Source of the DNA: a virus
Taxonomy: Duplodnaviria; Heunggongvirae; Uroviricota; Caudoviricetes
Virus record (IMG/VR): IMGVR_UViG_2537561603_000002
Reading direction: 5' to 3' (one strand)
DNA length: 34,676 nt
Positions 8,246 to 32,056 of the stretch are shown in pieces. A program made the translations under genes and the position numbers. Below the pieces are notes generated by a model. The model searched no databases and was not told the origin of the DNA. It saw only the letters and a list, made by a program, of their open reading frames with translations. The first letter of the stretch is position 1; each line of letters opens with the position of its first letter.

Positions 8246-8986
8246 TCAGTTTTCTTTGAATTTTTCACTTAATCGTTTCGTCAATACTTCGACAGATTCT
8301 TTGCGACCGGAGAACAAGTCATTGACGACGTACTCCATAATCTCAAAAGCATCCTCAATGTCTTTGACTTTTACTTCATCGTAGGTATGGCTTCCGGCAT
8401 TTCCTAAAAATTTAATTGCCATAAGAGGTCTTGAAAACGATCCGTATAATTCAGGTAGCATCCCTAAACGGTGGTGTAGAGTTATGCGTTTGCCATTATC
8501 ATTACGTTCAGCTACATCCATAGCGGTTAGCATTCTTTCAACTGAAATTCGAATTAGGTTTGCTGCTGCGCCAGGCTGTATTAGGAAAATGGAAAATGAG
8601 GCTTCAAGCGGTTCGGTAATTTCTTCTGGGCATTTTTCAGGTATTTCGAAAGGATGCAGTGATGGGTAAAAGGTGAAAGGTCTGTGCCATTGATAGTACT
8701 CAATATCATTTCTTTCTTCATCCCAACCTTGTTCCCATCCACTCTTACCAGTACAGGCCACAACTTCACCACATTGCATTCTTGAACAGCGGGCCATGCA
8801 ACTGAAAATAGATGAATCCATTTCTAGTTCAAACCAATCTTCACTGCGGAATTTTCGGGTATCATGTGTGTCATACGAGACGAAACTTTCTTTAATGATC
8901 TGTAGGGTTTTCTGATTGCAGTTAGGGCAGGGCCACTCAACCTGCATATCGTGGAAAAACGCACCAGAGAGCTTGTGCACAGTCAT
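8246..8986 (-). CDS. Cargo hypothetical protein (246 aa): N-terminal Cys-rich (zinc-ribbon-like) region plus C-terminal alpha-helical domain; candidate defence protein
   Basis: Reverse-strand ORF with SD gagga upstream of ATG 8986; CPNC...CxxxCxxxxC...C cysteines; C-terminal region holds an R-x4-H motif (KRITLHH); lower GC than backbone; in the A-to-Q variable region. Confidence 0.55.
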   Translation of the reverse strand: MTVHKLSGAFFHDMQVEWPCPNCNQKTLQIIKESFVSYDTHDTRKFRSEDWFELEMDSSIFSCMARCSRMQCGEVVACTGKSGWEQGWDEERNDIEYYQWHRPFTFYPSLHPFEIPEKCPEEITEPLEASFSIFLIQPGAAANLIRISVERMLTAMDVAERNDNGKRITLHHRLGMLPELYGSFSRPLMAIKFLGNAGSHTYDEVKVKDIEDAFEIMEYVVNDLFSGRKESVEVLTKRLSEKFKEN

Positions 8987-9356: not shown

Positions 9357-10157
9357 ATGATCTTTCTAAGTCATAATCACCGTGACAAAAGGTTTGTAAG
9401 TGTTATAGCGGAAAAACTAGCAGATGTTTATGGGCGTGATAACGTATTCTACGATTCTTGGTCTATCCAACCCGGAGAGGGTATTATTGACAAGATGAAT
9501 TTAGGAATGGAGAATGTATCGTTCTTTTTCTTTTTTGTCACAGAAAATAGCTTGGCAAGTAACATGGTAAAAATGGAATGGCAAAATGCTTTAATTAAGG
9601 CATCGTCCGGGAAGTGTAAATTTATACCAATACGTTGCCAGAATATATCCTTGCCTGCTCTGCTTACTCAAACGCTATATATTGATCTTTATTCGTATGG
9701 GATCGATGTGGCAATAAGACAAATTATAGATGTCATTAATCAACAAAATACGTATATTCCTAATCCTGAGAAGTATTCAAACCTCTCCTATGATATTAAG
9801 GATGATGATGGGGGTAAGATAGTGAAATTATCAGCAATGGATTTTTTAGAACCAATTGCTGATTTTATGATGATTATGGATAATACAATTAAGCATGATG
9901 ATGTTGTTGTTATGGTCAATGGAGAAAGCTCATTCACTCAGGGGTTTATTGAAAATGCATCTTTAGAAAATGGTATGAAAGTAAGTGGTGCCACTGTTGG
10001 CCTAAATCGGGGGTTAACACCAACGATGCCAATGTATGTTTCTCTTAGGTTAAAGGATGGTTCACCTTTGAATATATTTGCGGTGCTACATCGAGTAAGT
10101 ACCGAGCGTTATGCTCCTATACCACATAAAGCCGATGATGCCTTTAGAGTAAAATAA
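9357..10157 (+). CDS. TIR-domain protein (about 266 aa) with C-terminal domain of unknown function; candidate defence effector or sensor
   Basis: N-terminus MIFLSHNHRDKRFV...FYDSWSIQPGEGI...VTENSLASNMVKMEWQNAL follows the TIR pattern (FxSHxxxD, SW, conserved Glu in a W..E motif). AT-rich; alternative start at 9345; stem-loop terminator downstream. Confidence 0.6.
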   Translation: MIFLSHNHRDKRFVSVIAEKLADVYGRDNVFYDSWSIQPGEGIIDKMNLGMENVSFFFFFVTENSLASNMVKMEWQNALIKASSGKCKFIPIRCQNISLPALLTQTLYIDLYSYGIDVAIRQIIDVINQQNTYIPNPEKYSNLSYDIKDDDGGKIVKLSAMDFLEPIADFMMIMDNTIKHDDVVVMVNGESSFTQGFIENASLENGMKVSGATVGLNRGLTPTMPMYVSLRLKDGSPLNIFAVLHRVSTERYAPIPHKADDAFRVK

Positions 10158-17731: not shown

Positions 17732-18125
17732 AGCGGTGCCTTATGTCCGCAATAACCCGGACAAACTGCATCTGTTTGTGGATAACGGTTCGCTGGTTGC
17801 CACGGGGGCCAGCTCCATGTCATGGGAGTACCGTTACACCCTGAACGTGGTGATTGAGGATTTCAGCGGCGACCAGAATCTGCTGATGGCCCCGGTTTTG
17901 CTGTGGCTGCGGGATAACCAGCCTGATGCCATCAATAATCCGGCGTTACGGGAAAAACTATTCACCTTTGAGGTGGACATTCTGCGCAACGATGTCTGTG
18001 ATATCAGCCTTAACCTGCAACTGACGGAGCGGGTGCTGGTCAGTACTGACGGCAGTGTGTCGAGCGTTGAAGCGGTAGCGGAACCCGATGAACCTGAAGA
18101 AATGTGGACGGTGAAACGTGGCTGA
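17694..18125 (+). CDS. R: Tail completion protein R (start tentatively GTG 17694; ORF open from 17673)
   Basis: Translation (KPQSLRHALNKAVPYVRNNPDKLHLFVDNGS...YTLNVVIEDFSGDQNLLMAPVLLWLRDNQPD) parallels P2 gpR; aggag SD 8 nt before GTG 17694. Confidence 0.7.
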   Translation: MNKPQSLRHALNKAVPYVRNNPDKLHLFVDNGSLVATGASSMSWEYRYTLNVVIEDFSGDQNLLMAPVLLWLRDNQPDAINNPALREKLFTFEVDILRNDVCDISLNLQLTERVLVSTDGSVSSVEAVAEPDEPEEMWTVKRG

Positions 18126-18561
18126 ACTGCAGAAAGTGGACGACTGGCTGAGTGCCTTGCTGGCGAATCTGGAGCCAGCTGCAAGAAGCCGTATGATGCG
18201 GCAGCTGGCGCAGGAACTGCGCCGGACACAGCAGCAGAATATCAGGATGCAGCGCAATCCTGACGGCAGCAGCTATGAACCGCGACGGTTAACAGCACGC
18301 AGTAAAAAAGGCCGTATCAAACGTCAGATGTTTGCAAAGCTGCGCACCACAAAATACCTGAAAACTGCCGCCAGCGCCGATTCTGCCAGCGTGCAGTTTG
18401 AAGGTAAGGTACAGCGCATTGCCCGTGTTCATCACTACGGCCTGCGTGATCGCGTCAGCCGTAAAGGCCCAGAGGTACGTTACGCTGAGCGAAATTTATT
18501 AGGAGTAAATAGTAACATCAAAACATCGATAAAGGATGTTTTGATGCAATGGCTTTTATAA
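18118..18561 (+). CDS. S: Tail completion protein S (GTG start)
   Basis: 147-aa ORF overlapping R stop, in P2 R-S order. Confidence 0.7.
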   Translation: MAELQKVDDWLSALLANLEPAARSRMMRQLAQELRRTQQQNIRMQRNPDGSSYEPRRLTARSKKGRIKRQMFAKLRTTKYLKTAASADSASVQFEGKVQRIARVHHYGLRDRVSRKGPEVRYAERNLLGVNSNIKTSIKDVLMQWLL

Positions 18562-18578
18562 ATTAAGCTTCATTTGAC

Positions 18579-19316
18579 TCATTCATTGTCAAATAATTTT
18601 TGCTCTTTCAATATTTGTGTCGAAAAATTATTGCTTATTAATTTTACAAGCTTGCCGCACAAATTAAATGAATATCTAAAATAATCTAAGTCAGGGATGA
18701 GGTATTCTTTTTCTTCAGAGGATATTCCTGCCTCTAATAATTTTTTTTCATATCTTTGGTCCTTCACCCAATTATTATGGACTCCTGTGTCTCGTCTTGC
18801 TTTAATTTCAATGTATTGTTTTAAGAGATGTTCTATTTTCTTTTTGTCTAAGCATAAGAGTTTGCATAATTTATTGATGTATTCTTTGGGTGATCCAAAT
18901 GTGAGACTCGCGACTCCTTCGTTGACTAGATAGTCAAAAAGTTCATCTTCAGATAATGACTTAAACACCCCATAATCACACTTAATTTTATTTAGTTTTT
19001 CTGGATTGATCCTGAAGGTCAACTTCATGATTTCAATAATGTAATCTTCAAATGCTGAAACAAGCGAACTAAAGCACAATGATGGCATATGTTTTGTTAT
19101 TAAATCATGCCGTATTCCTTTATCTGAGATTTCAGGTGAATGTTTTTCCAGAAAGCATTCAAGATTTGTATAAGCCTCATAAAGCTGAGGGTTAGTTTCC
19201 TCATTGGCGTGAGAGATGGCAATGTTTTGAAATATAATTGTTCTGAATAAAATATCAGCTTTAATAAAATATGATGATGTGATTTTATCCAGGAAGAGAT
19301 AATTATCGGAGTGCAT
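18579..19316 (-). CDS. Cargo hypothetical protein (245 aa), AT-rich, antisense to the late operon; candidate abortive-infection/defence protein
   Basis: ORF with SD gaggaa 5 nt before ATG 19316; markedly AT-rich and Lys/Asn/Ile-rich, unlike flanking GC-balanced tail genes; inserted where P2 has S and V adjacent. Contains an R-x4-H motif (RRDTGVHNN), weak evidence. Confidence 0.55.
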   Translation of the reverse strand: MHSDNYLFLDKITSSYFIKADILFRTIIFQNIAISHANEETNPQLYEAYTNLECFLEKHSPEISDKGIRHDLITKHMPSLCFSSLVSAFEDYIIEIMKLTFRINPEKLNKIKCDYGVFKSLSEDELFDYLVNEGVASLTFGSPKEYINKLCKLLCLDKKKIEHLLKQYIEIKARRDTGVHNNWVKDQRYEKKLLEAGISSEEKEYLIPDLDYFRYSFNLCGKLVKLISNNFSTQILKEQKLFDNE

Positions 19317-19343
19317 ATCATTTCCTCAAGGTAATGCGTCTAT

Positions 19344-19361
19344 TGTATCAGGCTTTATACA
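19344..19361. promoter_or_regulatory. Ogr-type late promoter element (TGT-N12-ACA) for the V-W-J-I-H-G operon
   Basis: tgtatcaggctttataca, centred about 55 bp upstream of the expected transcript start near V ATG 19410. Confidence 0.5.
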
Positions 19362-19409
19362 TGAATGGATTGTGGATGAATATAATCATTTTCGTCAATG
19401 ATACAGGCC

Positions 19410-19988
19410 ATGAACGCACAATTAACCGAAATCATGCGCCTTATCACCAACCTGATCCGCACAGGTGTAGTCACCGAAGTGGACCGGGAAAACTGGCTTT
19501 GCCGGGTGAAAACGGGCGACCTTGAAACCAACTGGATTAGCTGGCTGACGCTGCGTGCCGGGAATGCCCGCACATGGTGGCGACCATCGGAAGGTGAGCA
19601 GGTGGTGCTGCTGAGTCTGGGAGGCAATCTGGAAACCGCCTTTGCGTTGCCCGCTGTCTATTCGAATCAGTTCGCTCCACCGTCGACGTCGGCGGACGCT
19701 TGCGTGACAGAGCATCCTGACGGCGGCTGGTTTGAATATGAACCCGCCACCGGGCGCTGGTATGTCAGGGGCATCAAATCAATGGTCATTGAGGCCGCTG
19801 ACAACATCACCATGAAAACCAGTGAGTTTGTACTGGAGGCTGACCGCACGAGCATTAACAGCGAAGTGGTGATCAATGGTGGCGTTACCCAGGGCGGCGG
19901 AGCGATGAGTTCTAACGGGATCGTGGTTGATGCGCATCAGCATACTGGCGTCCTGAAAGGCGGCGATACAACCGGAGGCCCGGTATGA
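19410..19988 (+). CDS. V: Baseplate spike / assembly protein V (P2 gpV-like)
   Basis: From ATG 19410 (MNAQLTEIMRLITNLIRTGVV...NWISWLTLRAGNARTWWRPSEGEQV...) parallels the P2 gpV N-terminus. Confidence 0.8.
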   Translation: MNAQLTEIMRLITNLIRTGVVTEVDRENWLCRVKTGDLETNWISWLTLRAGNARTWWRPSEGEQVVLLSLGGNLETAFALPAVYSNQFAPPSTSADACVTEHPDGGWFEYEPATGRWYVRGIKSMVIEAADNITMKTSEFVLEADRTSINSEVVINGGVTQGGGAMSSNGIVVDAHQHTGVLKGGDTTGGPV

Positions 19989-21837: not shown

Positions 21838-23243
21838 GCACAAAATTTTATACCCTGCTGACGGATATTGGCGCGGCGAAACTTGCCAGCGCCGCCGCGC
21901 TCGGTGTGCCGCTAAAAATTACCCATATGGCGGTGGGCGATGGCGGCGGAGTATTGCCAACGCCGGACGCAAAGCAGACGGCACTGGTAAATGAGAAACG
22001 CCGGGCTGCGCTGAATATGCTTTATATCGACCTGCAGAACAGCAGCCAGATTATTGCTGAACAGGTGATCCCTGAAAACGAGGGCGGTTGGTGGATACGT
22101 GAAGTGGGCCTGTTTGATGAGTCAGGGGCATTGATTGCCGTGGGCAACTGCCCGGAAAGCTATAAGCCGCAACTGGCTGAAGGCAGCGGGCGCACCCAGA
22201 CCGTGCGTATGGTGTTGATTACCAGCAGCACGGACAATATCACCCTGAAAATCGACCCTGCCGTAGTGCTGGCAACCCGCAAGTATGTGGATGACAAGGC
22301 ACTGGAGCTGAAGGTGTACGTGGATGACCAGCTGGCAAAACACCTTGCCGCACCGGACCCGCATTCACAATATGCACAGAAAGAAAGTCCGACGTTTACC
22401 GGGACACCAAAAGCGCCAACGCCTGCGGCAGGCAATAACACCACGCAGGTTGCGACCACTGCGTTTGTTCAGGCGGCACTGACGGCTCTTATTAATGGTG
22501 CGCCAGCCACGCTGGACACACTGAAAGAAATAGCCGCAGCCATTAACAATGACCCGAAATTCAGTACCACCATTAATGATGCGCTGGCACTCAAAGCGCC
22601 GCTGTCGAGTCCTGCACTTACCGGGACGCCGACAGCCCCCACGGCGGCACAGTCGGTCAACAATACACAGATTGCCACCACGGCTTTTGTGAAATCGGCG
22701 ATTGCGGCAATGGTGGGTTCTGCACCTGCTGCACTGGATACACTGAACGAACTGGCGGCGGCGCTGGGAAATGACCCGAACTTTGCCACGACAATGTTGA
22801 ATGCTCTGTCAGGTAAACAACCGCTGGACAATACGCTGACTAATTTGAGTGGAAAGGATGTAGCAGGTCTTCTCACATACCTTGGTTTGGGAGAAGCGGC
22901 TAAAAGGAATGTAGGTACAGGGGCGAATCAGATACCTGATATGAGCCTGTTCGCGTCAATTAATACCGTAACGGCTGCTGCGCAAAAATTTCCGTCTGGA
23001 TTAATTTTACAGTGCGGTCAGTTGAATGGTGCCCCGAATGTATCTTCAACATACGGGATGAGGTTTCCGATGACGTTCTCAAGAGTCATTGCTGTCGTAG
23101 TTACATTGAACGTTACTGGCGCGGCAGGGCAGCCGACTGTATCGGCGACAAGTGTCCAGAACACTGGATTTAATATTACGGTGTCGCCCGGTTCAGGATA
23201 TGGTTCATCTGCTGATGCGTATTACATTGCAATGGGATATTAA
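21834..23243 (+). CDS. H: Tail fibre protein H (469 aa) with internal tandem repeat
   Basis: N-terminus is P2-H-like ([39 protein letters not shown]); two ~75-aa repeats (...[12 protein letters not shown]... / ...[11 protein letters not shown]...). Confidence 0.8.
22390..22850. repeat. Tandem ~225-bp repeat (two copies) inside tail fibre gene H
   Basis: Protein-level repeats [55 protein letters not shown] and [55 protein letters not shown]; coordinates approximate. Confidence 0.5.
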
Positions 23244-23247
23244 CGAA

Positions 23248-23667
23248 ATGTCATATTTTTATTCTGCATCGACAAACGGATTTTATTCGACTGAATTTCA
23301 CGGCACCAATATTCCTGATGATGCAGTGGAAATCTCGGAATCAGAGTGGAAAACACTGATTAATTCACAGAGTGTAACAAAAATGATTACCTGTGGTGAG
23401 AACGGTCACCCTGTCATTGTTGACCGTCCTTCTCCAACACCAGAACAATTAGCCTTAATAAATAATGAAAAGAAATCTGCACTGATAGCAGAGGCAACGA
23501 ATGTAATAGCGCCGCTTCAGGATGCGGTTGATTTAGATATGGCAACAGATGATGAAACGAAACTGTTACTGGCATGGAAAAAATATCGCGTGCTATTGAT
23601 GCGTGTTAATACTTCAACAGCACTCGATATTGAATGGCCTACGTCTCCGGCAGTTCAGGCCCGATGA
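23248..23667 (+). CDS. G: Tail fibre assembly protein G (Tfa)
   Basis: ATG 23248 directly after H; conserved Tfa-type sequence ([13 protein letters not shown]... ; ...[27 protein letters not shown]). Confidence 0.75.
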
Positions 23668-24232
23668 CATCCGGCGCGGTGCTGGTATCTGTTGCCGTCA
23701 CCGCATCAATGTAATCCAGCACAGCGTTAAGCCGGGTGGTTTCTGTTTGCGACAGTTTTCGCCCGGTCTGCAATTTCAACTGAATCAGACTGATGGAAGC
23801 CATAGCAGCATCAATCAGTGACTGGCGCTGTACTTCTGCCGTTTCTACTGCGGCACCGTGTTGTGCCTCAGTATCTGTCACCCATTTCTCACCATCCCAT
23901 TTATCGTATGGCGTTAACGGTGAAAGCGTGACATAACCGTCTTTGATGGCACCGATATAATCCACAGTAATAGCTGCGCCATTTTCTGTTGAGTAAACAG
24001 TCTCATTGCGATGGTCTTCTTCATGGCTCCATCCCTTGCCCGTAAATACTGCCACTTTCCCCGGAATGTTTTCGCCCGGGGCAATACCAGTGGAACAGGC
24101 GGGCATACTTACACCAGTATTAATATATTCATCAGAGCAGCCCATATACTCAGATGTTTCAGCATCATAATAAAAACAACGCATATCGCCCGGCACTGTA
24201 GCCAGCCCATTTTCATCAAAAACAGGTTTCAT
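23639..24232 (-). CDS. Second, inverted tail fibre assembly gene (tfa'), remnant of an invertible tail-fibre segment
   Basis: 197-aa reverse-strand ORF with Tfa-like N-terminus ([29 protein letters not shown]) and C-terminus ([19 protein letters not shown]); convergent with and overlapping the 3' end of G. Confidence 0.65.
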
Positions 24233-24257
24233 TATTTAGCCCTCACCAGAAAGTTAA

Positions 24258-24515
24258 ATGCAATATTTTTTTTATGTCATGGGTGCTCTGGCTGAAATGG
24301 AACGCGAACTGATAGTTGAACGCACCAGGGCAGGGCTGGCTGCAGCTCGTGCCAAAGGCAGAGTAGGTGGACGCCGTACTAAGTTGACCACCGAACAGTG
24401 GGCACAGATTGGACGTTTACTCGAGGCCGGAGAATCAAGACAACGTATTGCACTGATTTTTGATGTGGGCGTTTCTACCATTTATAGAAAATTTCCGGCG
24501 AATAAGAGCAATTAA
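24258..24515 (+). pseudogene. 5'-truncated Gin/Pin/Hin-family serine DNA invertase (C-terminal ~80 aa only)
   Basis: GALAEMERELIVERTRAGLAAARAKGRVGGRR...ALIFDVGVSTIYRKFPA matches the C-terminal HTH region of Gin/Pin/Hin invertases; the N-terminal catalytic domain (active-site Ser) is absent. Confidence 0.7.
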
Positions 24516-26721: not shown

Positions 26722-26855
26722 CGGTTGACGATCTGGTGGCTGATATCGCCACCATCTTTCACTGGCCGCCATCCGTTACTGACGTTATGCCGCTGACCGA
26801 AGTGCTGGAATGGCGGTATAAAGCGATTCAGAGAAGCGGGGCCAACGATGAGTGA
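26419..26855 (+). CDS. E': E+E' fusion by programmed -1 translational frameshift at TTTTTTG (26676-26682)
   Basis: Slippery heptamer T-TTT-TTG in the E frame; the -1 frame stays open to the TGA at 26853-26855 and encodes ...SLTVDDLVADIATIFHWPP...EWRYKAIQRSGANDE, P2-E'-like. Confidence 0.6.
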
Positions 26856-29800
26856 TAATAACCTGCGCCTGCAGGTCATTCTTAATGCGGTTGACAAACT
26901 CACCCGCCCATTTCGATCTGCGCAGGCCAGTTCAAGAGAACTGGCTGCTGCTGTCAAAAAATCCCGCGATGCAATAAAGCAGCTTGATCAGGCCGGGAGC
27001 AGTCTGGACAGCTTCCGAAAGCTGCAGGCAGAAAATCAGAAATTAGGCGACAGGCTGAACTATGCCCGCCAGCGTGCCAATTTGCTCAGTCAGGAACTGG
27101 GAGCGATGGGGCCGCCTTCGCAACGTCAGGTTGTCGCTCTGGGCCGTCAACGGCTGGCTGTTCAGCGCCTGGAAGAACGCCAGAAAAAGCTGCAGCAGCA
27201 GACGGCGCTTGTGCGTGCAGAACTTTATCGTGCTGGTATTTCAGCTAATGATGGCGCCAGTGCGACGGCCCGCATTACCCGTGAAACGATGCGTTATAAC
27301 AGGCAGCTTTCTGAGCAGGAAGCGAGGTTACGACGTGTCGGGGAGCAACAGCGAAAAATGCACGCCGCCCGGGGGGCTTACGTCAGGCGTCTTGAGGTAA
27401 GGGATCGTATTGCAGGTGCTGGAGCCACCACCACGGCGGCAGGGCTGGCAATGGGCGCGCCAGTGATGGCGGCAGTAAAAAGCTATACCAGCATGGAAGA
27501 TGCCATGAAAGGTGTGGCAAAGCAGGTCAATGGTCTGCGTGACGATAATGGCAACCGCACTGCACGTTTTTATGAAATGCAGGATGCCATCAAGGCTGCC
27601 AGCGAACAGTTGCCGATGGAAAACGGTGCTGTGGACTTCGCCGCACTGGTTGAAGGTGGTGCGCGCATGAACGTCTCAAACCCTGATGACAGCTGGGAAG
27701 ACCAGAAACGTGACCTGCTGGCCTTCGCCAGTACGGCTGCGAAGGCGGCAACAGCCTTTGAGCTGCCAGCGGATGAACTGTCAGAAAGTCTGGGGAAAAT
27801 CGCCCAGCTCTACAAAATACCTACCCGCAATATTGAACAGCTCGGCGATGCGCTGAACTATCTGGATGATAACGCCATGTCGAAAGGGGCGGACATCATT
27901 GATGTGATGCAACGTCTGGGCGGTGTGGCTGACCGTCTGGATTATCGTAAAGCGGCGGCACTGGGTTCCACCTTTCTGACACTGAGCGCTGCGCCGGAGG
28001 TTGCAGCCAGTGCAGCAAACGCGATGGTGCGTGAATTGTCCATTGCCACCATGCAAAGCAAGAGTTTCTTTGAAGGGATGAATCTGCTGAAACTCAATCC
28101 TGAAGTGATTGAAAAGCAGATGACGAAGGATGCGATGGGAACTATCCAGCGTGTGCTGGAGAAGGTGAACGCACTGCCGCAGGACAAGCGTCTGTCTGCC
28201 ATGACCATGTTGTTTGGTAAAGAGTTTGGCGATGACGCAGCGAAACTGGCAAACAACCTGCCGGAACTGCAGCGCCAGTTAAAACTGACAGCGGGCAATG
28301 ATGCGCTCGGCTCCATGCAGAAAGAATCCGACATTAACAAGGATTCACTTTCTGCGCAGTGGTTGCTGGTCAAAACCACTGCGCAGAATACCTTCAGCAG
28401 CCTGGGCGAAACGCTGCGCCAGCCGCTGATGGATATTCTGTACACGGTGAAAAGCGTCACGGGGGCGTTGCGTCGCTGGGTGGAAGCTAACCCGGAACTG
28501 ACGGGCACACTGATGAAAGTAGCAGCGGTTGTGGCTGCCGTTACCGTGGGCCTCGGCACCCTGGCTGTGGTGTTGGCTGCAGTGCTGGGGCCGCTGGCAG
28601 TGATCCGTCTGGGATTCTCTGTGCTGGGTATCAAAACGTTACCTTCCGTTACGGCAGCAGTAACACGAACCAGCAGCGCGTTGTCCTGGCTGGCTGGCGC
28701 TCCACTGGCAGTGCTGCGACGCGGGCTTGCTTCATCGGGTAACGCAGCGGGTTTACTTACTGCGCCGTTGTCGTCTTTGCGCCGTATGGCATCACTGACG
28801 GGAAATGTCCTGAAAACTGTAGCAGGTGCGCCGGTTGCACTATTGCGGTCCGGTTTATCCGCTTTACGTGCTGTTGCTGTGATGTTTATGAATCCTCTGG
28901 CGGTACTGCGCGGTGGACTGGCTGCCGCAGGCGCGGTGCTTCGTGTGCTGGCATCTGGTCCGCTGGCGATGCTGCGCGTTGCCCTGTATGCCGTATCTGG
29001 TCTGTTAGGTGCTCTGCTCAGTCCGATAGGTCTTGTGGTTACTGCACTGACGGGTGTGGCGCTGGTTGTCTGGAAATACTGGCAACCCATCACCGCATTT
29101 CTCGGTGGCGTGGTGGAAGGATTCAAAGCGGCGGCAGGTCCCATCAGTGCAGCATTCGAACCACTTAAGCCTGTGTTTCAGTGGATTGGCGACAAAGTGC
29201 AGGCGCTGTGGGGCTGGTTTACTGATCTGCTGACGCCCGTTAAGTCGACCTCTGCTGAACTGCAGAGCGCAGCGGCAATGGGGCAACGATTCGGGGAGGC
29301 ACTGGCGGAAGGACTGAATATGGTCATGCATCCGCTGGACTCCCTGAAATCCGGCGTATCCTGGTTGCTGGAAAAACTCGGCATTGTCAGTAAAGAGGCC
29401 GCAAAGGCAAAACTGCCGGAAAGCGTGACGCGTCAGCAACCTGCGACGGTGAATGCAGACGGCAAAGTGATGATACCATCGGGTGGTTTTCCGTCATGGG
29501 GATATGGCTTTGCGGGGATGTATGACAGCGGCGGCTATATCCCGCGCGGGCAGTTTGGCATCGTCGGTGAAAACGGGCCTGAAATTATCAACGGCCCGGC
29601 AAATGTGACCAGCCGGAAAAATACAGCTGCACTGGCTGCCGTTGTTGCCGGAATGATGGGCGTTGCTGCCGCGCCTGCAGAGCTTCCACCGTTACATCCT
29701 TTGGCACTTCCCGCGAAAGGCGGCGAAGCGATGGTGAGTCGTGCAGCCACTGTGCCGCCCGTTCAACGGATTGAGGCACCGACGCAGATCATCATTCAGA

Positions 29801-29925
29801 CGCAGCCAGGACAAAGTGCGCAGGATATTGCGCGGGAGGTGGCCCGCCAGCTTGATGAACGTGAACGCAGGCTGAAGGCAAAAGCCAGGAGTAACTACAG
29901 CGATCAGGGGGGATACGACGCATGA
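26848..29925 (+). CDS. T: Tail tape measure protein T
   Basis: 1025-aa ORF with coiled-coil N-terminal part and Gly/Ala-rich hydrophobic central repeats; after E/E' as in all P2-like tails. Confidence 0.85.
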   Translation: MSDNNLRLQVILNAVDKLTRPFRSAQASSRELAAAVKKSRDAIKQLDQAGSSLDSFRKLQAENQKLGDRLNYARQRANLLSQELGAMGPPSQRQVVALGRQRLAVQRLEERQKKLQQQTALVRAELYRAGISANDGASATARITRETMRYNRQLSEQEARLRRVGEQQRKMHAARGAYVRRLEVRDRIAGAGATTTAAGLAMGAPVMAAVKSYTSMEDAMKGVAKQVNGLRDDNGNRTARFYEMQDAIKAASEQLPMENGAVDFAALVEGGARMNVSNPDDSWEDQKRDLLAFASTAAKAATAFELPADELSESLGKIAQLYKIPTRNIEQLGDALNYLDDNAMSKGADIIDVMQRLGGVADRLDYRKAAALGSTFLTLSAAPEVAASAANAMVRELSIATMQSKSFFEGMNLLKLNPEVIEKQMTKDAMGTIQRVLEKVNALPQDKRLSAMTMLFGKEFGDDAAKLANNLPELQRQLKLTAGNDALGSMQKESDINKDSLSAQWLLVKTTAQNTFSSLGETLRQPLMDILYTVKSVTGALRRWVEANPELTGTLMKVAAVVAAVTVGLGTLAVVLAAVLGPLAVIRLGFSVLGIKTLPSVTAAVTRTSSALSWLAGAPLAVLRRGLASSGNAAGLLTAPLSSLRRMASLTGNVLKTVAGAPVALLRSGLSALRAVAVMFMNPLAVLRGGLAAAGAVLRVLASGPLAMLRVALYAVSGLLGALLSPIGLVVTALTGVALVVWKYWQPITAFLGGVVEGFKAAAGPISAAFEPLKPVFQWIGDKVQALWGWFTDLLTPVKSTSAELQSAAAMGQRFGEALAEGLNMVMHPLDSLKSGVSWLLEKLGIVSKEAAKAKLPESVTRQQPATVNADGKVMIPSGGFPSWGYGFAGMYDSGGYIPRGQFGIVGENGPEIINGPANVTSRKNTAALAAVVAGMMGVAAAPAELPPLHPLALPAKGGEAMVSRAATVPPVQRIEAPTQIIIQTQPGQSAQDIAREVARQLDERERRLKAKARSNYSDQGGYDA

Positions 29926-30407
29926 TGATGGTGCTGGGATTGTACGTGTTTATGCTGCGCACCGTGCCGTATCAGGAACTGCAGTATCAACGCAGCTGGC
30001 GACATGCGGCAAACAGCCGGGTAAACCGTCGTCCGTCCACGCAGTTTCTGGGACCGGAAAACGATATGCTGACGCTTTCCGGTGTTCTTATGCCGGAGAT
30101 AACAGGCGGCAGGCTGTCGTTGCTGGCACTGGAGCAGATGGCAGAACAGGGGAAAGCATGGCCCCTGATTGAAGGCAGCGGCACGATTTACGGCATGTAT
30201 GTGATTGAGGGACTGAATCAGACTAAAACGGAGTTTTTCCGCGACGGTATGCCGCGCCGGATTGAGTTCACCCTGTCGCTAAAACGGGTGGATGAATCCC
30301 TGTCCGATATGTTCGGTGATCTCAGTACTCAACTGAATAATCTGCAGGACACGGCAACGTCTGCTTTAAGCGATATCAGTAAAACGGTGGGAGGGCTGCT
30401 GTCGTGA
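29922..30407 (+). CDS. U: Tail protein U
   Basis: 161 aa (P2 U 159 aa), overlapping T stop. Confidence 0.8.
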   Translation: MMMVLGLYVFMLRTVPYQELQYQRSWRHAANSRVNRRPSTQFLGPENDMLTLSGVLMPEITGGRLSLLALEQMAEQGKAWPLIEGSGTIYGMYVIEGLNQTKTEFFRDGMPRRIEFTLSLKRVDESLSDMFGDLSTQLNNLQDTATSALSDISKTVGGLLS

Positions 30408-31512
30408 ATTTCAGCTCTGAACTGCTTAACAAAGGCAACAAAACTCCGGCATTCAGCATCAGTGTTGAGGGCAGGGATATCACCACTGTGCTGGACAACC
30501 GCCTGATGGGGCTTACGCTGACGGATAACCGGGGCTTTGAAGCGGACCAGCTTGATCTGGAGCTGGACGACGCTGATGGAAAAATCGTGCTGCCGCGCCG
30601 TGGTGCGGTCATTACGCTGGCGCTGGGCTGGAAGGGACAGCCGCTTTTCCCGAAAGGGGCATTCACGGTGGACGAGATTGAACACACTGGCGCACCGGAC
30701 CGCCTGACCATCCGGGCGCGAAGTGCTGATTTTCGGGAAACGCTGAATACCCGCCGTGAAAAATCGTGGCACAAGACCACGGTCGGGGAAGTGGTGAAGG
30801 AAATAGCTGCGCGGCACAAACTGAAGATGGCACTGGGTAAAGACCTGTCGGATAAGCCCGTGGAACATATAGACCAGACCAATGAGAGTGACGGCAGTTT
30901 TCTGATGCGGCTGGCGCGCCAGTACGGTGCTATTGCGTCGGTGAAAAATGGCAATCTGTTATTCATCCGGCAGGGACAGGGCAAAAGCGCCAGCGGTAAA
31001 CCTCTGCCGGTGATCACTATCACACGCAAGGACGGCGACAGTCACCGCTTTACCCTGGCAGATCGCGGAGCCTATACGGGCGTAATTGCCAGTTGGTTGC
31101 ATACCCGCGAACCCGCGAACCCGCGAAGAAAGAAAGCACCACGGTGAAGCGTAAGCGCAGGACCGCAAAGCAGAAGAAAGAGCCGGAAGCGAAGCAGGGC
31201 GATTACCTGGTGGGTACGGATGAAAACGTGCTGGTACTTAATCGCACTTATGCCAACCGGAGCAACGCCGAACGGGCAGCGAAAATGCAGTGGGAACGCC
31301 TGCAACGCGGCGTTGCATCATTCTCGCTACAACCGGCGGAAGGGCGGGCAGATCTCTACACAGAAATGCCTGTGAAGGTCAGTGGCTTTAAACAGCCGAT
31401 AGATGATGCGGAATGGACCATTACGACTCTGACGCATACCGTCAGCCCGGATAACGGTTTTACGACCAGTCTGGAGCTTGAAGTGAGGATTGATGATTTC
31501 GAAATGGAATGA
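30404..31512 (+). pseudogene. D: Tail protein D (late control gene D) interrupted by a frameshift in an 8-bp tandem repeat (ACCCGCGA x3 at 31103-31126)
   Basis: Two ORFs (30404-31147 and 31093-31512, different frames) together cover a gpD-length protein; deleting one 8-bp unit gives one continuous ~366-aa ORF (…HTREPAKKESTTVKRKRR…). Confidence 0.65.
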
Positions 31513-31602
31513 TTCTTCGCAATGGAGAACTTTTAAGTTTGCAAAATGGAATGATGCGGTATCATTATTGTGAATTTAGCAAAAATGGGGAGAACTCGAA
31601 AA

Positions 31603-31821
31603 ATGATGATTTGCCCACTGTGCGGAAGTGCCGCCCATACTCGCAGCAGTTTTCAGGTATCTTCATTGACCAAAGAGCGTTACAACCAGTGCCAGAACAT
31701 TAACTGCAGCCATACTTTTGTTACCCATGAAACTTTTGTTCGTTCGATTGCAACGCCAAAAGAGTCAAATCCGGTTCAGCCGCATCCAATGAAATCAGGA
31801 CAGGTGGCGCTCTCTCTTTGA
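31603..31821 (+). CDS. ogr: Late gene transcription activator Ogr (zinc finger, 72 aa)
   Basis: MMICPLCGSAAHTRSSFQVSSLTKERYNQCQNINCSHTFVTHE parallels P2 Ogr (CPLC...QCQNVNCS...); last phage gene before the att repeat. Confidence 0.8.
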   Translation: MMICPLCGSAAHTRSSFQVSSLTKERYNQCQNINCSHTFVTHETFVRSIATPKESNPVQPHPMKSGQVALSL

Positions 31822-31843: not shown

Positions 31844-31900
31844 TCGTTAAAAAACAGTGCTTCTAACGTCATGATTTTAAACGGCATAAATTTCAGGCAA

Positions 31901-31945
31901 CAAAAAACCCATCAACCTTGAACCGAAATGGCGGGGTTGATGGGC
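31901..31945 (-). terminator. Rho-independent terminator of ybjL (minus strand)
   Basis: Stem cccatcaac (31908-31916) / gttgatggg (31936-31944); on the minus strand it is followed by a T-rich run (complement of aaaaaa at 31902-31907). Confidence 0.6.
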
Positions 31946-32056
31946 TCCACAAAATGGGGACATCAAAGAAAAGCAGTGGCACTAATTAAGACTGATGCCC
32001 TGCGGAAAAGTTCTGCGGTTGTGCAAAAAAATTTCATTTTCAGGGCAACTTCAGTT

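What the first reader, a model, noticed from the sequence alone, without database searches (positions are those of the whole stretch)
18579..19316. AT-rich antisense cargo gene inserted between tail genes S and V, an atypical moron site
In P2, S and V are adjacent in the late operon. Here a 245-aa reverse-strand ORF with strongly AT-biased, Lys/Asn/Ile-rich composition lies between them. Its stop is 17 bp from the S stop and its start region is shared with the Ogr-dependent V promoter. The composition and antisense orientation point to horizontally acquired cargo, plausibly an abortive-infection or toxin-like gene. A C-terminal R-x4-H motif (RRDTGVHNN) is compatible with a HEPN-type RNase, but that is weak evidence. 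The known P2 hotspots are tin/old and Z/fun, so this would be an additional insertion site.
Basis: partly seen in the sequence, partly recalled or inferred. Interest (0 to 1): 0.75.

Follow-up and report, generated by a model that had tools for sequence, protein, structure and literature searches.

The report
HEPN-like cargo gene in P2's orf30 slot
An AT-rich, backwards-facing gene between two tail genes of a P2-like prophage is real and probably encodes a stand-alone HEPN-type RNA-cutting toxin used against other phages, but it sits in a cargo slot that phage P2 itself is long known to use (orf30), so the site is ordinary and only the protein family is new.

Summary
A 245-aa minus-strand ORF (18579-19316, GC 0.32) lies between tail genes S and V (GC ~0.57), and its stop is 17 bp from the S stop.

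The site interpretation is wrong. P2 itself carries Orf30, antisense, between S and V, and the literature lists the orf30 locus with TO and Z/fun as the three horizontal-transfer sites of P2-like phages. In a sample of E. coli junctions about one third are occupied, by at least 10 unrelated cargos (TIR, FRG, DUF6216, DUF5677, hypotheticals). This cargo is in only 4 of 1041 genomes.

The swapped cassette (~18492-19409) includes the last 23 codons of S and the whole V promoter region. Every cassette keeps a TGT-N12-ACA box 64-66 bp before V.

It is a single gene with no partner, under strong purifying selection. The best reading is a solo HEPN-type RNase acting as an abortive-infection effector; that function is inferred, not shown. 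It is a new member of a known kind, of modest interest.

The parts
18579..19316 (-). Cargo gene, 245 aa: N-terminal helical region (about residues 1-70) plus a HEPN-like core (about 70-235)
18777..18794 (-). Codons R175-D176-T-G-V-H180: candidate HEPN R-x4-H catalytic motif, inside the invariant block EIKARRDxGVHNNW
   Evidence: Invariant in A1. R175 and H180 invariant in 64 relatives at 15-55% identity. R invariant and H at least 90% in 110 further members. At the end of helix 158-181 in the model
19047..19049 (-). Codon E90: invariant acidic residue in the long helix 72-103, the candidate HEPN helix-2 acidic residue
   Evidence: helix assignment; feature definition from PMC3710099
18492..19409 (.). 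The exchangeable cassette (~918 bp). Homology to empty-site, TIR, FRG and other variants ends at 18491-18508 and resumes at 19409/19410 (19387 for the TIR variant)
   Evidence: BLAST breakpoints; empty site in L016 has only 68 bp between S and V
18492..18561 (+). Cassette-encoded last 23 codons of S (GC 0.26 against 0.57 for the rest of S). Each cassette type encodes its own S C-terminus
18515..18547 (.). 12-13 bp hairpin inside the S 3' end, 32 nt downstream of the cargo stop. Possibly a terminator or RNA-stability element for the cargo transcript; role uncertain
   Evidence: Terminator-like scan, minus strand; folding -15.8 to -18.7 kcal/mol, z -3.3 and -3.7. The tail after the stem is T-poor, so the assignment is weak
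19323..19327 (-). Shine-Dalgarno GAGGA, 6 nt upstream of the cargo ATG
   Evidence: Read directly from the sequence
19344..19361 (+). TGT-N12-ACA dyad (TGTATCAGGCTTTATACA): Ogr/Delta-type late-activator box of the V operon promoter, 66 bp before the V ATG
   Evidence: Only such match in 18400-19500. The same box lies at -64 to -66 in all six cassette variants of this lineage despite unrelated surrounding sequence. P2 annotates an activator site at the equivalent place. An ogr/Delta gene is at 31602-31820
19369..19398 (-). Sigma-70-like site TTGACG-18-CACAAT, candidate cargo promoter overlapping the V core promoter. Unverified
   Evidence: 9 of 12 matches. The number of such sites in the region is not clearly above the shuffled expectation: 8 found against 4.3 +/- 2.2
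18118..18561 (+). Left flank: gene S (tail completion / virion morphogenesis)
   Evidence: PF05069 E 3e-41, phrog_26
19410..19988 (+). Right flank: gene V (baseplate spike)
   Evidence: PF04717 plus Apex; annotated start 19410

Best explanation
The ORF is single-gene cargo in the well-known orf30 slot (between S and V) of a P2-like prophage. The slot exchanges as a cassette by recombination within the 3' end of S and at the start of V. Each cassette must bring a replacement S C-terminus and a V late promoter with its Ogr box.

The cargo protein belongs to a large, unannotated family. Its C-terminal ~165 residues form a HEPN-type helical bundle, with an R-D-x3-H motif at the end of helix 3, an invariant glutamate in helix 2, and a helical insert between helices 2 and 3.

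By analogy with other HEPN proteins, I infer a metal-independent RNase. It would be made from its own promoter in the lysogen and kept inactive by its own oligomeric or N-terminal architecture, since no antitoxin gene or RNA is present. An infecting phage would switch it on to cleave tRNA, mRNA or rRNA and abort the infection.

Shown here: gene reality, cassette anatomy, slot polymorphism, family size, residue invariance, fold similarity on a predicted model, and absence of a partner gene. Inferred: RNase activity, autoinhibition, the trigger, and the anti-phage role.
For: - Slot: P2 Orf30 occupies the same place and strand. The literature names the orf30 locus as a horizontal-transfer site.
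- Occupancy: 18 of 50 sampled E. coli junctions are occupied, by TIR, FRG, DUF6216, DUF5677 and several hypotheticals. TIR cargo suggests the slot carries defence genes.
- Cassette: the breakpoints are shared across variants. The Ogr box is fixed at -64 to -66 and the S C-terminus differs per cassette.
- Family: 1050 clusters at E<=1e-3. R175, H180, E90, P105 and Y189 are invariant in 64 diverse members, and R is invariant in 110 more.
- Motif: its position, the polar residue after R, the acidic residue in helix 2 and the helix 2-3 insert all match the published HEPN definition.
- Solo status: the cassette has no room for a second gene. There are no tandem repeats and no conserved neighbour in 46 distant loci.
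- Selection: dN/dS is about 0.05.
- Precedent: HepS of Gifsy-1 is a solo, constitutively expressed, autoinhibited prophage HEPN Abi that cuts tRNA.
- Slot fidelity: all relatives at 36% identity or more, and one at 33%, lie between S and V.
Against: - No sequence-profile link to any recognised HEPN family. Pfam gives only 3 marginal RiboL-PSP-HEPN hits among 174 members, which is noise level.
- hhalign against a DUF4145 profile gives probability 0.6%.
- PDB profile searches are empty, and Foldseek on the whole chain finds nothing.
- The Ex3[K/R] form of the acidic motif is absent.
- There is no PADLOC hit.
- Neighbours of distant relatives are mostly housekeeping genes, not defence islands.
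- No expression, toxicity or phage-resistance data exist. The promoter assignment is not above chance.
- The fold evidence rests on a predicted structure, and the spatial proximity of E90 to R175/H180 could not be checked.
Confidence: 0.5

Rival explanations
1. It is a HEPN-type RNase toxin that serves the prophage rather than the host. It would act as an addiction or stabilisation module, or as an exclusion factor against competing P2-like phages or P4-type satellites. Its neutraliser would be encoded elsewhere, for example antisense RNA made when late-operon transcription reads through S.
For: It is antisense and sandwiched between two late operons, so readthrough from S would make perfectly complementary RNA. 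It has strict slot fidelity within P2-like phages. There is no adjacent protein antitoxin.
Against: Most related prophages have an empty slot and persist without it. Distant relatives sit alone in non-phage contexts with no such antisense arrangement. Nothing shows the protein is constitutively toxic.
Confidence: 0.13
2. It is a helical protein with a HEPN-like bundle but no nuclease function. It would be a ligand-binding, regulatory or anti-defence protein, with the conserved R, H and E used for binding, as in the non-catalytic HEPN domains attached to nucleotidyltransferases.
Against: Per PMC3710099, non-catalytic HEPN domains have typically lost Rx4-6H, whereas here R is invariant and H nearly so across about 170 diverse members, together with the polar D after R. 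[quoted passage not shown]
Confidence: 0.17
3. It is a phage-beneficial RNase used during the P2-like phage's own lytic cycle, for host mRNA shut-off or late-transcript processing, rather than in the lysogen.
For: It is located within the late gene region, and its 5' region overlaps an Ogr-dependent promoter region.
Against: It is transcribed opposite to both late operons, and the Ogr box is oriented for V. It is dispensable: it is absent from more than 99% of related E. coli prophages and from all INPHARED phages. Its foreign AT-rich composition is typical of morons expressed from the prophage.
Confidence: 0.08
4. It is a tail or virion accessory protein, because it lies among tail genes.
For: Position between S and V only.
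Against: Opposite strand. Foreign composition. The slot is empty in most relatives and in L-413C. The slot is interchangeable with TIR and FRG proteins. There is no PHROG structural match. Distant relatives lie outside phages.
Confidence: 0.02

Closest known systems
P2 Orf30 and the 'orf30 locus' of P2-like phages (NC_001895; Nilsson and Haggard-Ljungquist, as cited in PMC3091744)
   Same: Identical genomic slot (between S and V), same antisense orientation, similar size (261 against 245 aa), low GC, nonessential, flanked by the end of the O operon and the Ogr-dependent V promoter.
   Different: No sequence similarity between the proteins. P2 Orf30 has no Pfam match and no Rx4H-based prediction here. 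The backbone is a 186/Fels-2-type P2 relative, with S only about 38% identical to P2 S.
HepS of Salmonella prophage Gifsy-1 (solo HEPN abortive-infection protein, PMC13043305)
   Different: No detectable sequence relationship: PDB profile searches returned no HEPN chain. The motif positions differ (R100-H105 in HepS, R175-H180 here). This protein has an extra N-terminal helical region and a large helix 2-3 insert. HepS sits in a lambdoid siphovirus, this gene in a P2-like myovirus. Activity, oligomer state and trigger are untested here.
HEPN superfamily Abi and toxin families (AbiV, AbiD/F, AbiJ, AbiU2, RnlA/LsoA, HEPN-MNT HepT, DUF4145, RiboL-PSP-HEPN; PMC3710099)
   Same: Helical-bundle core; R[NDH]xxxH at the end of helix 3; an upstream conserved acidic residue; an insert between helices 2 and 3; frequent residence on mobile elements.
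   Different: It is outside every Pfam HEPN model. No profile-profile link to DUF4145. No MNT, RnlB-type or RNA antitoxin beside it. No fused sensor domain of a known type.
Defence hotspots of P2-like phages (gpA-portal 'tin/old' locus and Z/fun locus; PMC9122126, PMC9519451, bioRxiv 10.1101/2024.10.15.618418, bioRxiv 10.64898/2026.02.27.708500)
   Same: A small locus between two conserved phage genes with high turnover of unrelated, AT-rich, often defence-like cargo. TIR proteins occur in the S-V slot and also in this prophage's gpA-portal locus.
   Different: The S-V slot holds one gene (rarely two), not 1-5 kb systems. It lies inside the late structural region, so each cassette must rebuild the S 3' end and the V promoter. 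In the papers I could read it has not been mined experimentally for defence; the 2026 preprint only mentions minor hotspots 'within the late genes'.

Membership tests
HEPN superfamily (definition of Anantharaman et al. 2013, PMC3710099) | Core four-helix up-down bundle made of two alpha-hairpins | tested here: met
HEPN superfamily | Conserved Rx4-6H motif | tested here: met
   R175-x4-H180 is invariant in A1 and A2. R is invariant and H at least 90% conserved in 110 further members.
HEPN superfamily | [quoted passage not shown] | tested here: met
   R175-H180 lie at the C-terminal end of helix 158-181, followed by loop 182-186 and helices 187-196 and 210-235; definition.
HEPN superfamily | Residue immediately after R is polar (N, D or H) | tested here: met
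   D176 is at least 90% conserved.
HEPN superfamily | Second conserved acidic residue in helix 2, typically Ex3[KR], lying near the motif | tested here: inconclusive
   E90 is invariant or at least 90% conserved and lies in the long helix 72-103 before the insert. However, the Ex3[KR] form is absent (E90-DYI-I94), and 3D proximity could not be measured because no coordinates were available.
HEPN superfamily | Insert (loop, helix or hairpin) between helices 2 and 3 | tested here: met
   Residues 104-157 form four short helices between helix 72-103 and helix 158-181.
HEPN superfamily | Statistically supported sequence or profile link to a recognised HEPN family | tested here: not met
   Pfam: no hit for the query. 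PF18735 RiboL-PSP-HEPN is hit by 3 of 174 members at E 0.001-0.02, the same level as unrelated noise hits. hhalign against a DUF4145 profile gives probability 0.6%. PDB profile searches are empty. HHpred against all Pfam and PDB profiles could not be run.
HEPN superfamily | Metal-independent RNase activity dependent on R and H; dimer with a composite active site | not testable with these tools
   Needs biochemistry or a multimer model.
P2-type moron / orf30-slot cargo | Lies between S and V, has foreign base composition, and is polymorphic for presence, absence or identity among related phages | tested here: met
   literature.
Catalogued anti-phage defence systems (PADLOC-DB v2.0.0) | Match to a model of a known or candidate defence protein | tested here: not met
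   0 families for the query at E<=10. No meaningful hits for 64 relatives.
HEPN-MNT or other type II toxin-antitoxin pair | Adjacent, co-oriented antitoxin gene | tested here: not met
   The cassette has room for one gene only. No conserved neighbour in 46 distant loci.
Type III TA / RNA-antitoxin Abi (ToxIN- or AbiF-like) | Tandem repeat array or structured antitoxin RNA next to the toxin gene | tested here: not met
   No tandem repeats in 18300-19600. No Rfam family in the region.
HepS-like solo HEPN Abi | Sequence homology to HepS; activation by a phage structural protein; tRNA anticodon cleavage | tested here: inconclusive
   No PDB chain of any HEPN protein was retrieved by the family profiles, but I could not confirm that HepS is in that PDB copy. 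Trigger and substrate are not testable here.

The most novel reading that the evidence does not exclude
The S-V (orf30) slot is a third, experimentally unmined defence hotspot of P2-like phages, and this ~1000-cluster family is a new solo HEPN abortive-infection RNase. Its cassette design would form a built-in self-immunity switch: it is antisense between two late operons, with its start region and candidate promoter overlapping the Ogr box. Late transcription and Ogr binding would then silence the toxin when the prophage itself goes lytic.
Probability: 0.15. Interest if true: 0.6.

Novelty: new member of a known kind. Interest (0 to 1): 0.35.

Why it matters
Two things remain useful.

First, there is a large protein family (about 1050 clusters at 50% identity, spread over many phyla) that no curated library covers. 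It has a strictly conserved HEPN-type catalytic signature, which makes it a concrete candidate for a new single-gene anti-phage RNase, comparable to the recently described HepS. It is small and easy to test.

Second, the S-V slot of P2-like prophages, which are present in about a fifth of complete E. coli genomes, carries TIR, FRG, DUF6216 (including in BL21) and other cargo in about a third of cases. Yet it has been left out of the functional screens that mined the gpA-portal and Z/fun loci.

The cassette rule also shows how a phage can host swappable cargo inside an essential late-gene block: each cargo brings its own S C-terminus and an Ogr box at a fixed distance from V.

Tried and rejected
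- Direct family scans of the ORF against Pfam, PHROGs, NCBIfam and PADLOC gave nothing.
- BLASTP against P2 Orf30 and four other S-V occupants showed no similarity, so the slot's cargos are unrelated.
- PDB sequence-profile searches with A1 and A2 returned only chance hits.
- Foldseek against PDB with the whole chain gave no hit below E 0.25. Against BFVD it found only two uncharacterised phage proteins. The afdb50 library was unavailable.
- I built a profile of the window's own DUF4145 protein (a Pfam HEPN family) and compared it with the S-V family by hhalign. The result was negative, probability 0.6%.
- Permissive Pfam scans of 174 family members showed RiboL-PSP-HEPN in 3, no better than noise.
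- A search for a conserved partner gene in 46 distant loci found none. The Pfam census of their neighbours was heterogeneous and mostly housekeeping, so guilt by association does not support defence for the distant clade.
- No RNA antitoxin or tandem repeats were found.
- Promoter scanning did not rise clearly above the shuffled background, so the cargo promoter is unassigned.
- The tail-accessory reading is rejected because of strand, composition, dispensability and interchangeability with TIR and FRG proteins.
- The spurious-ORF reading is rejected because of dN/dS and full-length conservation.
- The 78-aa plus-strand ORF inside the gene (18697-18933) is treated as a chance ORF.

Full report
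**Observation.** The feature is as described.
- A 245-codon ORF runs on the minus strand from 19316 to 18579.
- GC falls from 0.54-0.61 in the flanks to 0.30-0.34 across it.
- The left neighbour is gene S (PF05069, E 3e-41). The right neighbour is gene V (PF04717 plus the Apex motif).
- The stop codons of S and the ORF are 17 bp apart.
- A GAGGA Shine-Dalgarno sits 6 nt before the ATG.
- It is a real gene. Homologues are full-length down to 33% identity. Against relatives, synonymous sites are saturated (pS 0.72-0.87) while pN is 0.14-0.41, giving dN/dS of about 0.05-0.06 where it can be calculated.
- RefSeq annotates it as a hypothetical protein in a near-identical E. coli genome.

**The site is not atypical.** That is wrong.
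- The P2 reference record annotates Orf30 (261 aa, minus strand, 'nonessential') between S and V. It is preceded by the O-operon terminator and followed by the activator site of the V promoter. The close P2 relative L-413C has an empty junction.
- PMC3091744 states that the TO region, the Z region and the orf30 locus are the three places where P2-like phages commonly hold horizontally acquired genes.
- PMC6823313 describes another 741-bp ORF replacing orf30 in phage R18C.
- In E. coli, 1041 of 5426 complete genomes match the S and V flanks of this window, but only 4 carry this cargo.
- In an evenly spaced sample of the ranking, 31 of the 50 junctions with both flanks are empty (68 bp between S and V) and 18 are occupied.
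- The occupants include TIR-domain proteins, FRG-domain proteins, DUF6216 (including BL21 and Rosetta), DUF5677 and at least five different hypothetical proteins.
- The window ORF shows no similarity to P2 Orf30 or to four other occupants.
- So the slot is a common hotspot that is already documented, and this occupant is a rare one.

**Cassette anatomy.**
- Homology between the window and the empty, TIR, FRG and two hypothetical variants ends at 18491-18508, which is 18-23 codons before the S stop. It resumes at 19409/19410, the V start codon as annotated in relatives (19387 for the TIR variant).
- The unit that is exchanged is therefore about 918 bp. It includes the S C-terminus: the last 70 nt of S have GC 0.26 against 0.57 for the rest of S. 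Each cassette encodes its own version of the last ~20 residues.
- The unit also includes the entire V promoter region. Every cassette of this lineage, including the empty one, keeps a TGT-N12-ACA dyad 64-66 bp upstream of the V ATG, although the surrounding sequence is unrelated.
- In the window that dyad is at 19344-19361, 28 bp from the cargo ATG. This is the position of the Ogr/Delta-type activator site annotated in P2, and an ogr/Delta gene lies at 31602-31820.
- A stable 12-13 bp hairpin (18515-18547; z about -3.5) lies 32 nt downstream of the cargo stop, inside the S 3' end. Its role is uncertain.
- A sigma-70-like site on the minus strand (19398-19369) is a candidate cargo promoter. Such sites are not clearly enriched over shuffled sequence.

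**The protein.**
- No model in Pfam, PHROGs, NCBIfam or PADLOC matches it.
- The word-indexed search found only 19 clusters, all 'hypothetical', from Klebsiella, Enterobacter, Pantoea and E. coli.
- An exhaustive profile search found 1050 representative clusters at E<=0.001, of which 219 are at 1e-10 or better. They share residues ~70-235.
- In the close family the only long invariant block is E-I-K-A-R-R-D-x-G-V-H-N-N-W (residues 170-183). A second invariant block is F-S-x-L-V-S-A-F-E (residues 82-90).
- Across 64 members at 15-55% identity, the invariant residues are E90, P105, R175, H180 and Y189, and D176 is nearly invariant. In 110 further members R is invariant and E, D and H are at least 90% conserved.
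- AlphaFold2 with the family alignment gives a confident all-helical model (pLDDT 87.3, pTM 0.83).
- I checked the published definition of the superfamily (PMC3710099). Four features fit the model: the Rx4-6H motif sits at the end of helix 3 entering the loop to helix 4, the residue after R is polar, a conserved acidic residue lies in helix 2, and there is an insert between helices 2 and 3.
- In the model these correspond to R175-H180 ending helix 158-181, D176, E90 in helix 72-103, and a helical insert at 104-157.

**Limits of the HEPN assignment.**
- No profile-level link to a named HEPN family was obtained. RiboL-PSP-HEPN (PF18735) is hit by 3 of 174 members at E 0.001-0.02, no better than unrelated noise families.
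- A profile of the DUF4145 protein encoded elsewhere in this window (a recognised HEPN family) does not align with the family (hhalign probability 0.6%).
- PDB sequence-profile searches and whole-chain Foldseek are empty.
- The Ex3[K/R] form of the acidic motif is absent.
- I could not measure distances in the model or predict a dimer.
- I therefore rate 'HEPN-fold protein with an RNase-type active site' at roughly 0.7. It is a structural and motif-based inference, not a demonstrated membership.

**Context of relatives.**
- Every relative at 36% identity or more, and one at 33%, lies between V and S, antisense to them, in P2-like prophages or viral contigs of Klebsiella, Enterobacter, Pantoea and E. 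coli.
- Cargo divergence does not track backbone divergence. In L029, for example, S is 80% and V 86% identical but the cargo only 39%. Family members therefore move between backbones while staying in the slot, as expected if exchange goes through the conserved S and V flanks.
- Relatives at 33% identity or less come from Proteobacteria, Bacteroidota, Chloroflexi, Verrucomicrobia, Spirochaetes and others. They are not in P2 contexts.
- These distant relatives have no conserved neighbour. They sit among mostly housekeeping genes, with only occasional integrase, AAA_21 or HNH genes.
- The family is thus a stand-alone, mobile, single-gene module. The distant clade gives no guilt-by-association support for defence.
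- No tandem repeats or Rfam elements that could be an RNA antitoxin lie in the cassette.
- No INPHARED phage genome encodes the protein.

**Mechanism.**
- The best-supported reading is a solo HEPN-type RNase carried as prophage cargo. It would be expressed in the lysogen, held inactive by its own architecture (there is no antitoxin), and activated by an infecting phage to cleave RNA and abort the infection.
- Shown here: cassette anatomy, slot polymorphism, invariance of the candidate catalytic residues, fold similarity, solo status and purifying selection.
- Inferred: RNase activity, autoinhibition, the trigger, and the anti-phage phenotype.
- Rivals: a prophage-serving toxin or exclusion factor, perhaps controlled by antisense late transcription; a non-catalytic HEPN-like binding or anti-defence protein; a lytic-cycle RNase; and a tail accessory protein, which is effectively excluded.

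**Novelty and score.**
- The insertion site is already known, and the general kind (AT-rich, single-gene, HEPN-like cargo in a prophage hotspot) is known.
- The protein family itself is unannotated and large, and no functional test of S-V cargo appears in the papers I could read. Rousset 2022 analysed the gpA-portal locus. Vassallo 2022 and the iLund4u preprint also cover the Z/fun locus, and iLund4u reports a third hotspot between a tail protein and CI. The 2026 preprint mentions minor hotspots 'within the late genes'.
- I classify it as a new member of a known kind, with interest 0.35. It is a good, cheap experimental candidate and a pointer to an under-mined slot, but it would not surprise a specialist.

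Noticed in passing
window 8246-8986 (-) and 9357-10157 (+): The classical gpA-portal (tin/old) hotspot of this same prophage is also loaded. It holds a 246-aa DUF4145 protein (PF13643, E 5e-13; a recognised HEPN family) and, divergently, a 266-aa TIR_2 protein (E 4e-23). If the S-V assignment holds, the prophage carries two HEPN-type genes and a TIR gene. The DUF4145 protein has an invariant four-cysteine N-terminal region (C20, C23, C67, C72).
   Followed up: partly
window 31899-31977 (-): [quoted passage not shown] The element appears to be integrated beside or into the rybB locus. The att sites were not mapped.
   Followed up: no
window 30403-31511 and 26848-29925: Gene D (late control / tail protein) has no ORF of 250 aa or more in the window and is annotated as frameshifted in E. 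coli Rb-23, so the prophage may be defective. The tape-measure gene is intact in the window (1025 aa) but annotated as frameshifted in Rb-23, which differs by an indel near 28590 plus 5 SNPs.
   Followed up: partly
window 23215-24515: At the Z/fun position there are two oppositely oriented tail-fibre assembly genes (23215-23667 + and 23639-24232 -), followed by a truncated recombinase pseudogene (24261-24515). This looks like the remnant of an invertible tail-fibre switch.
   Followed up: no
L031 1247-1987 and 2021-2749 (IMGVR_UViG_3300012880_000062): In one P2-like viral contig the S-V slot holds two co-oriented genes. One is a family member (246 aa, 38% identical). It is directly followed by a 242-aa protein with hydrophobic N-terminal segments (a putative membrane protein). 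This could be a two-component variant of the cargo.
   Followed up: partly
E. coli BL21 / Rosetta2(DE3) chromosomes (hits H150, H151): The P2-like prophage of the laboratory B strains carries a DUF6216 family protein in the S-V slot. Strain NC101 and NGF1 carry a 250-aa hypothetical protein, LF82 and phage Cartapus another, and several strains a TIR or FRG protein. None of these S-V cargos seems to have been tested functionally.
   Followed up: no
L016, L001-L004 and window, 64-66 bp upstream of V: Every cassette variant keeps a TGT-N12-ACA dyad at a fixed distance from the V start, while all surrounding sequence differs. The last ~20 residues of S are rewritten in each cassette but keep an LLG...I/L..WL-like pattern. 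The S C-terminus therefore seems tolerant of change but not free to vary.
   Followed up: yes
L017 / L018 (metagenomic contigs with P0168): A 335-aa distant family member lies two to three genes from a 481-aa DACNV-domain protein (PF21751) in two independent metagenomic contigs. I did not examine whether this is a functional association.
   Followed up: no
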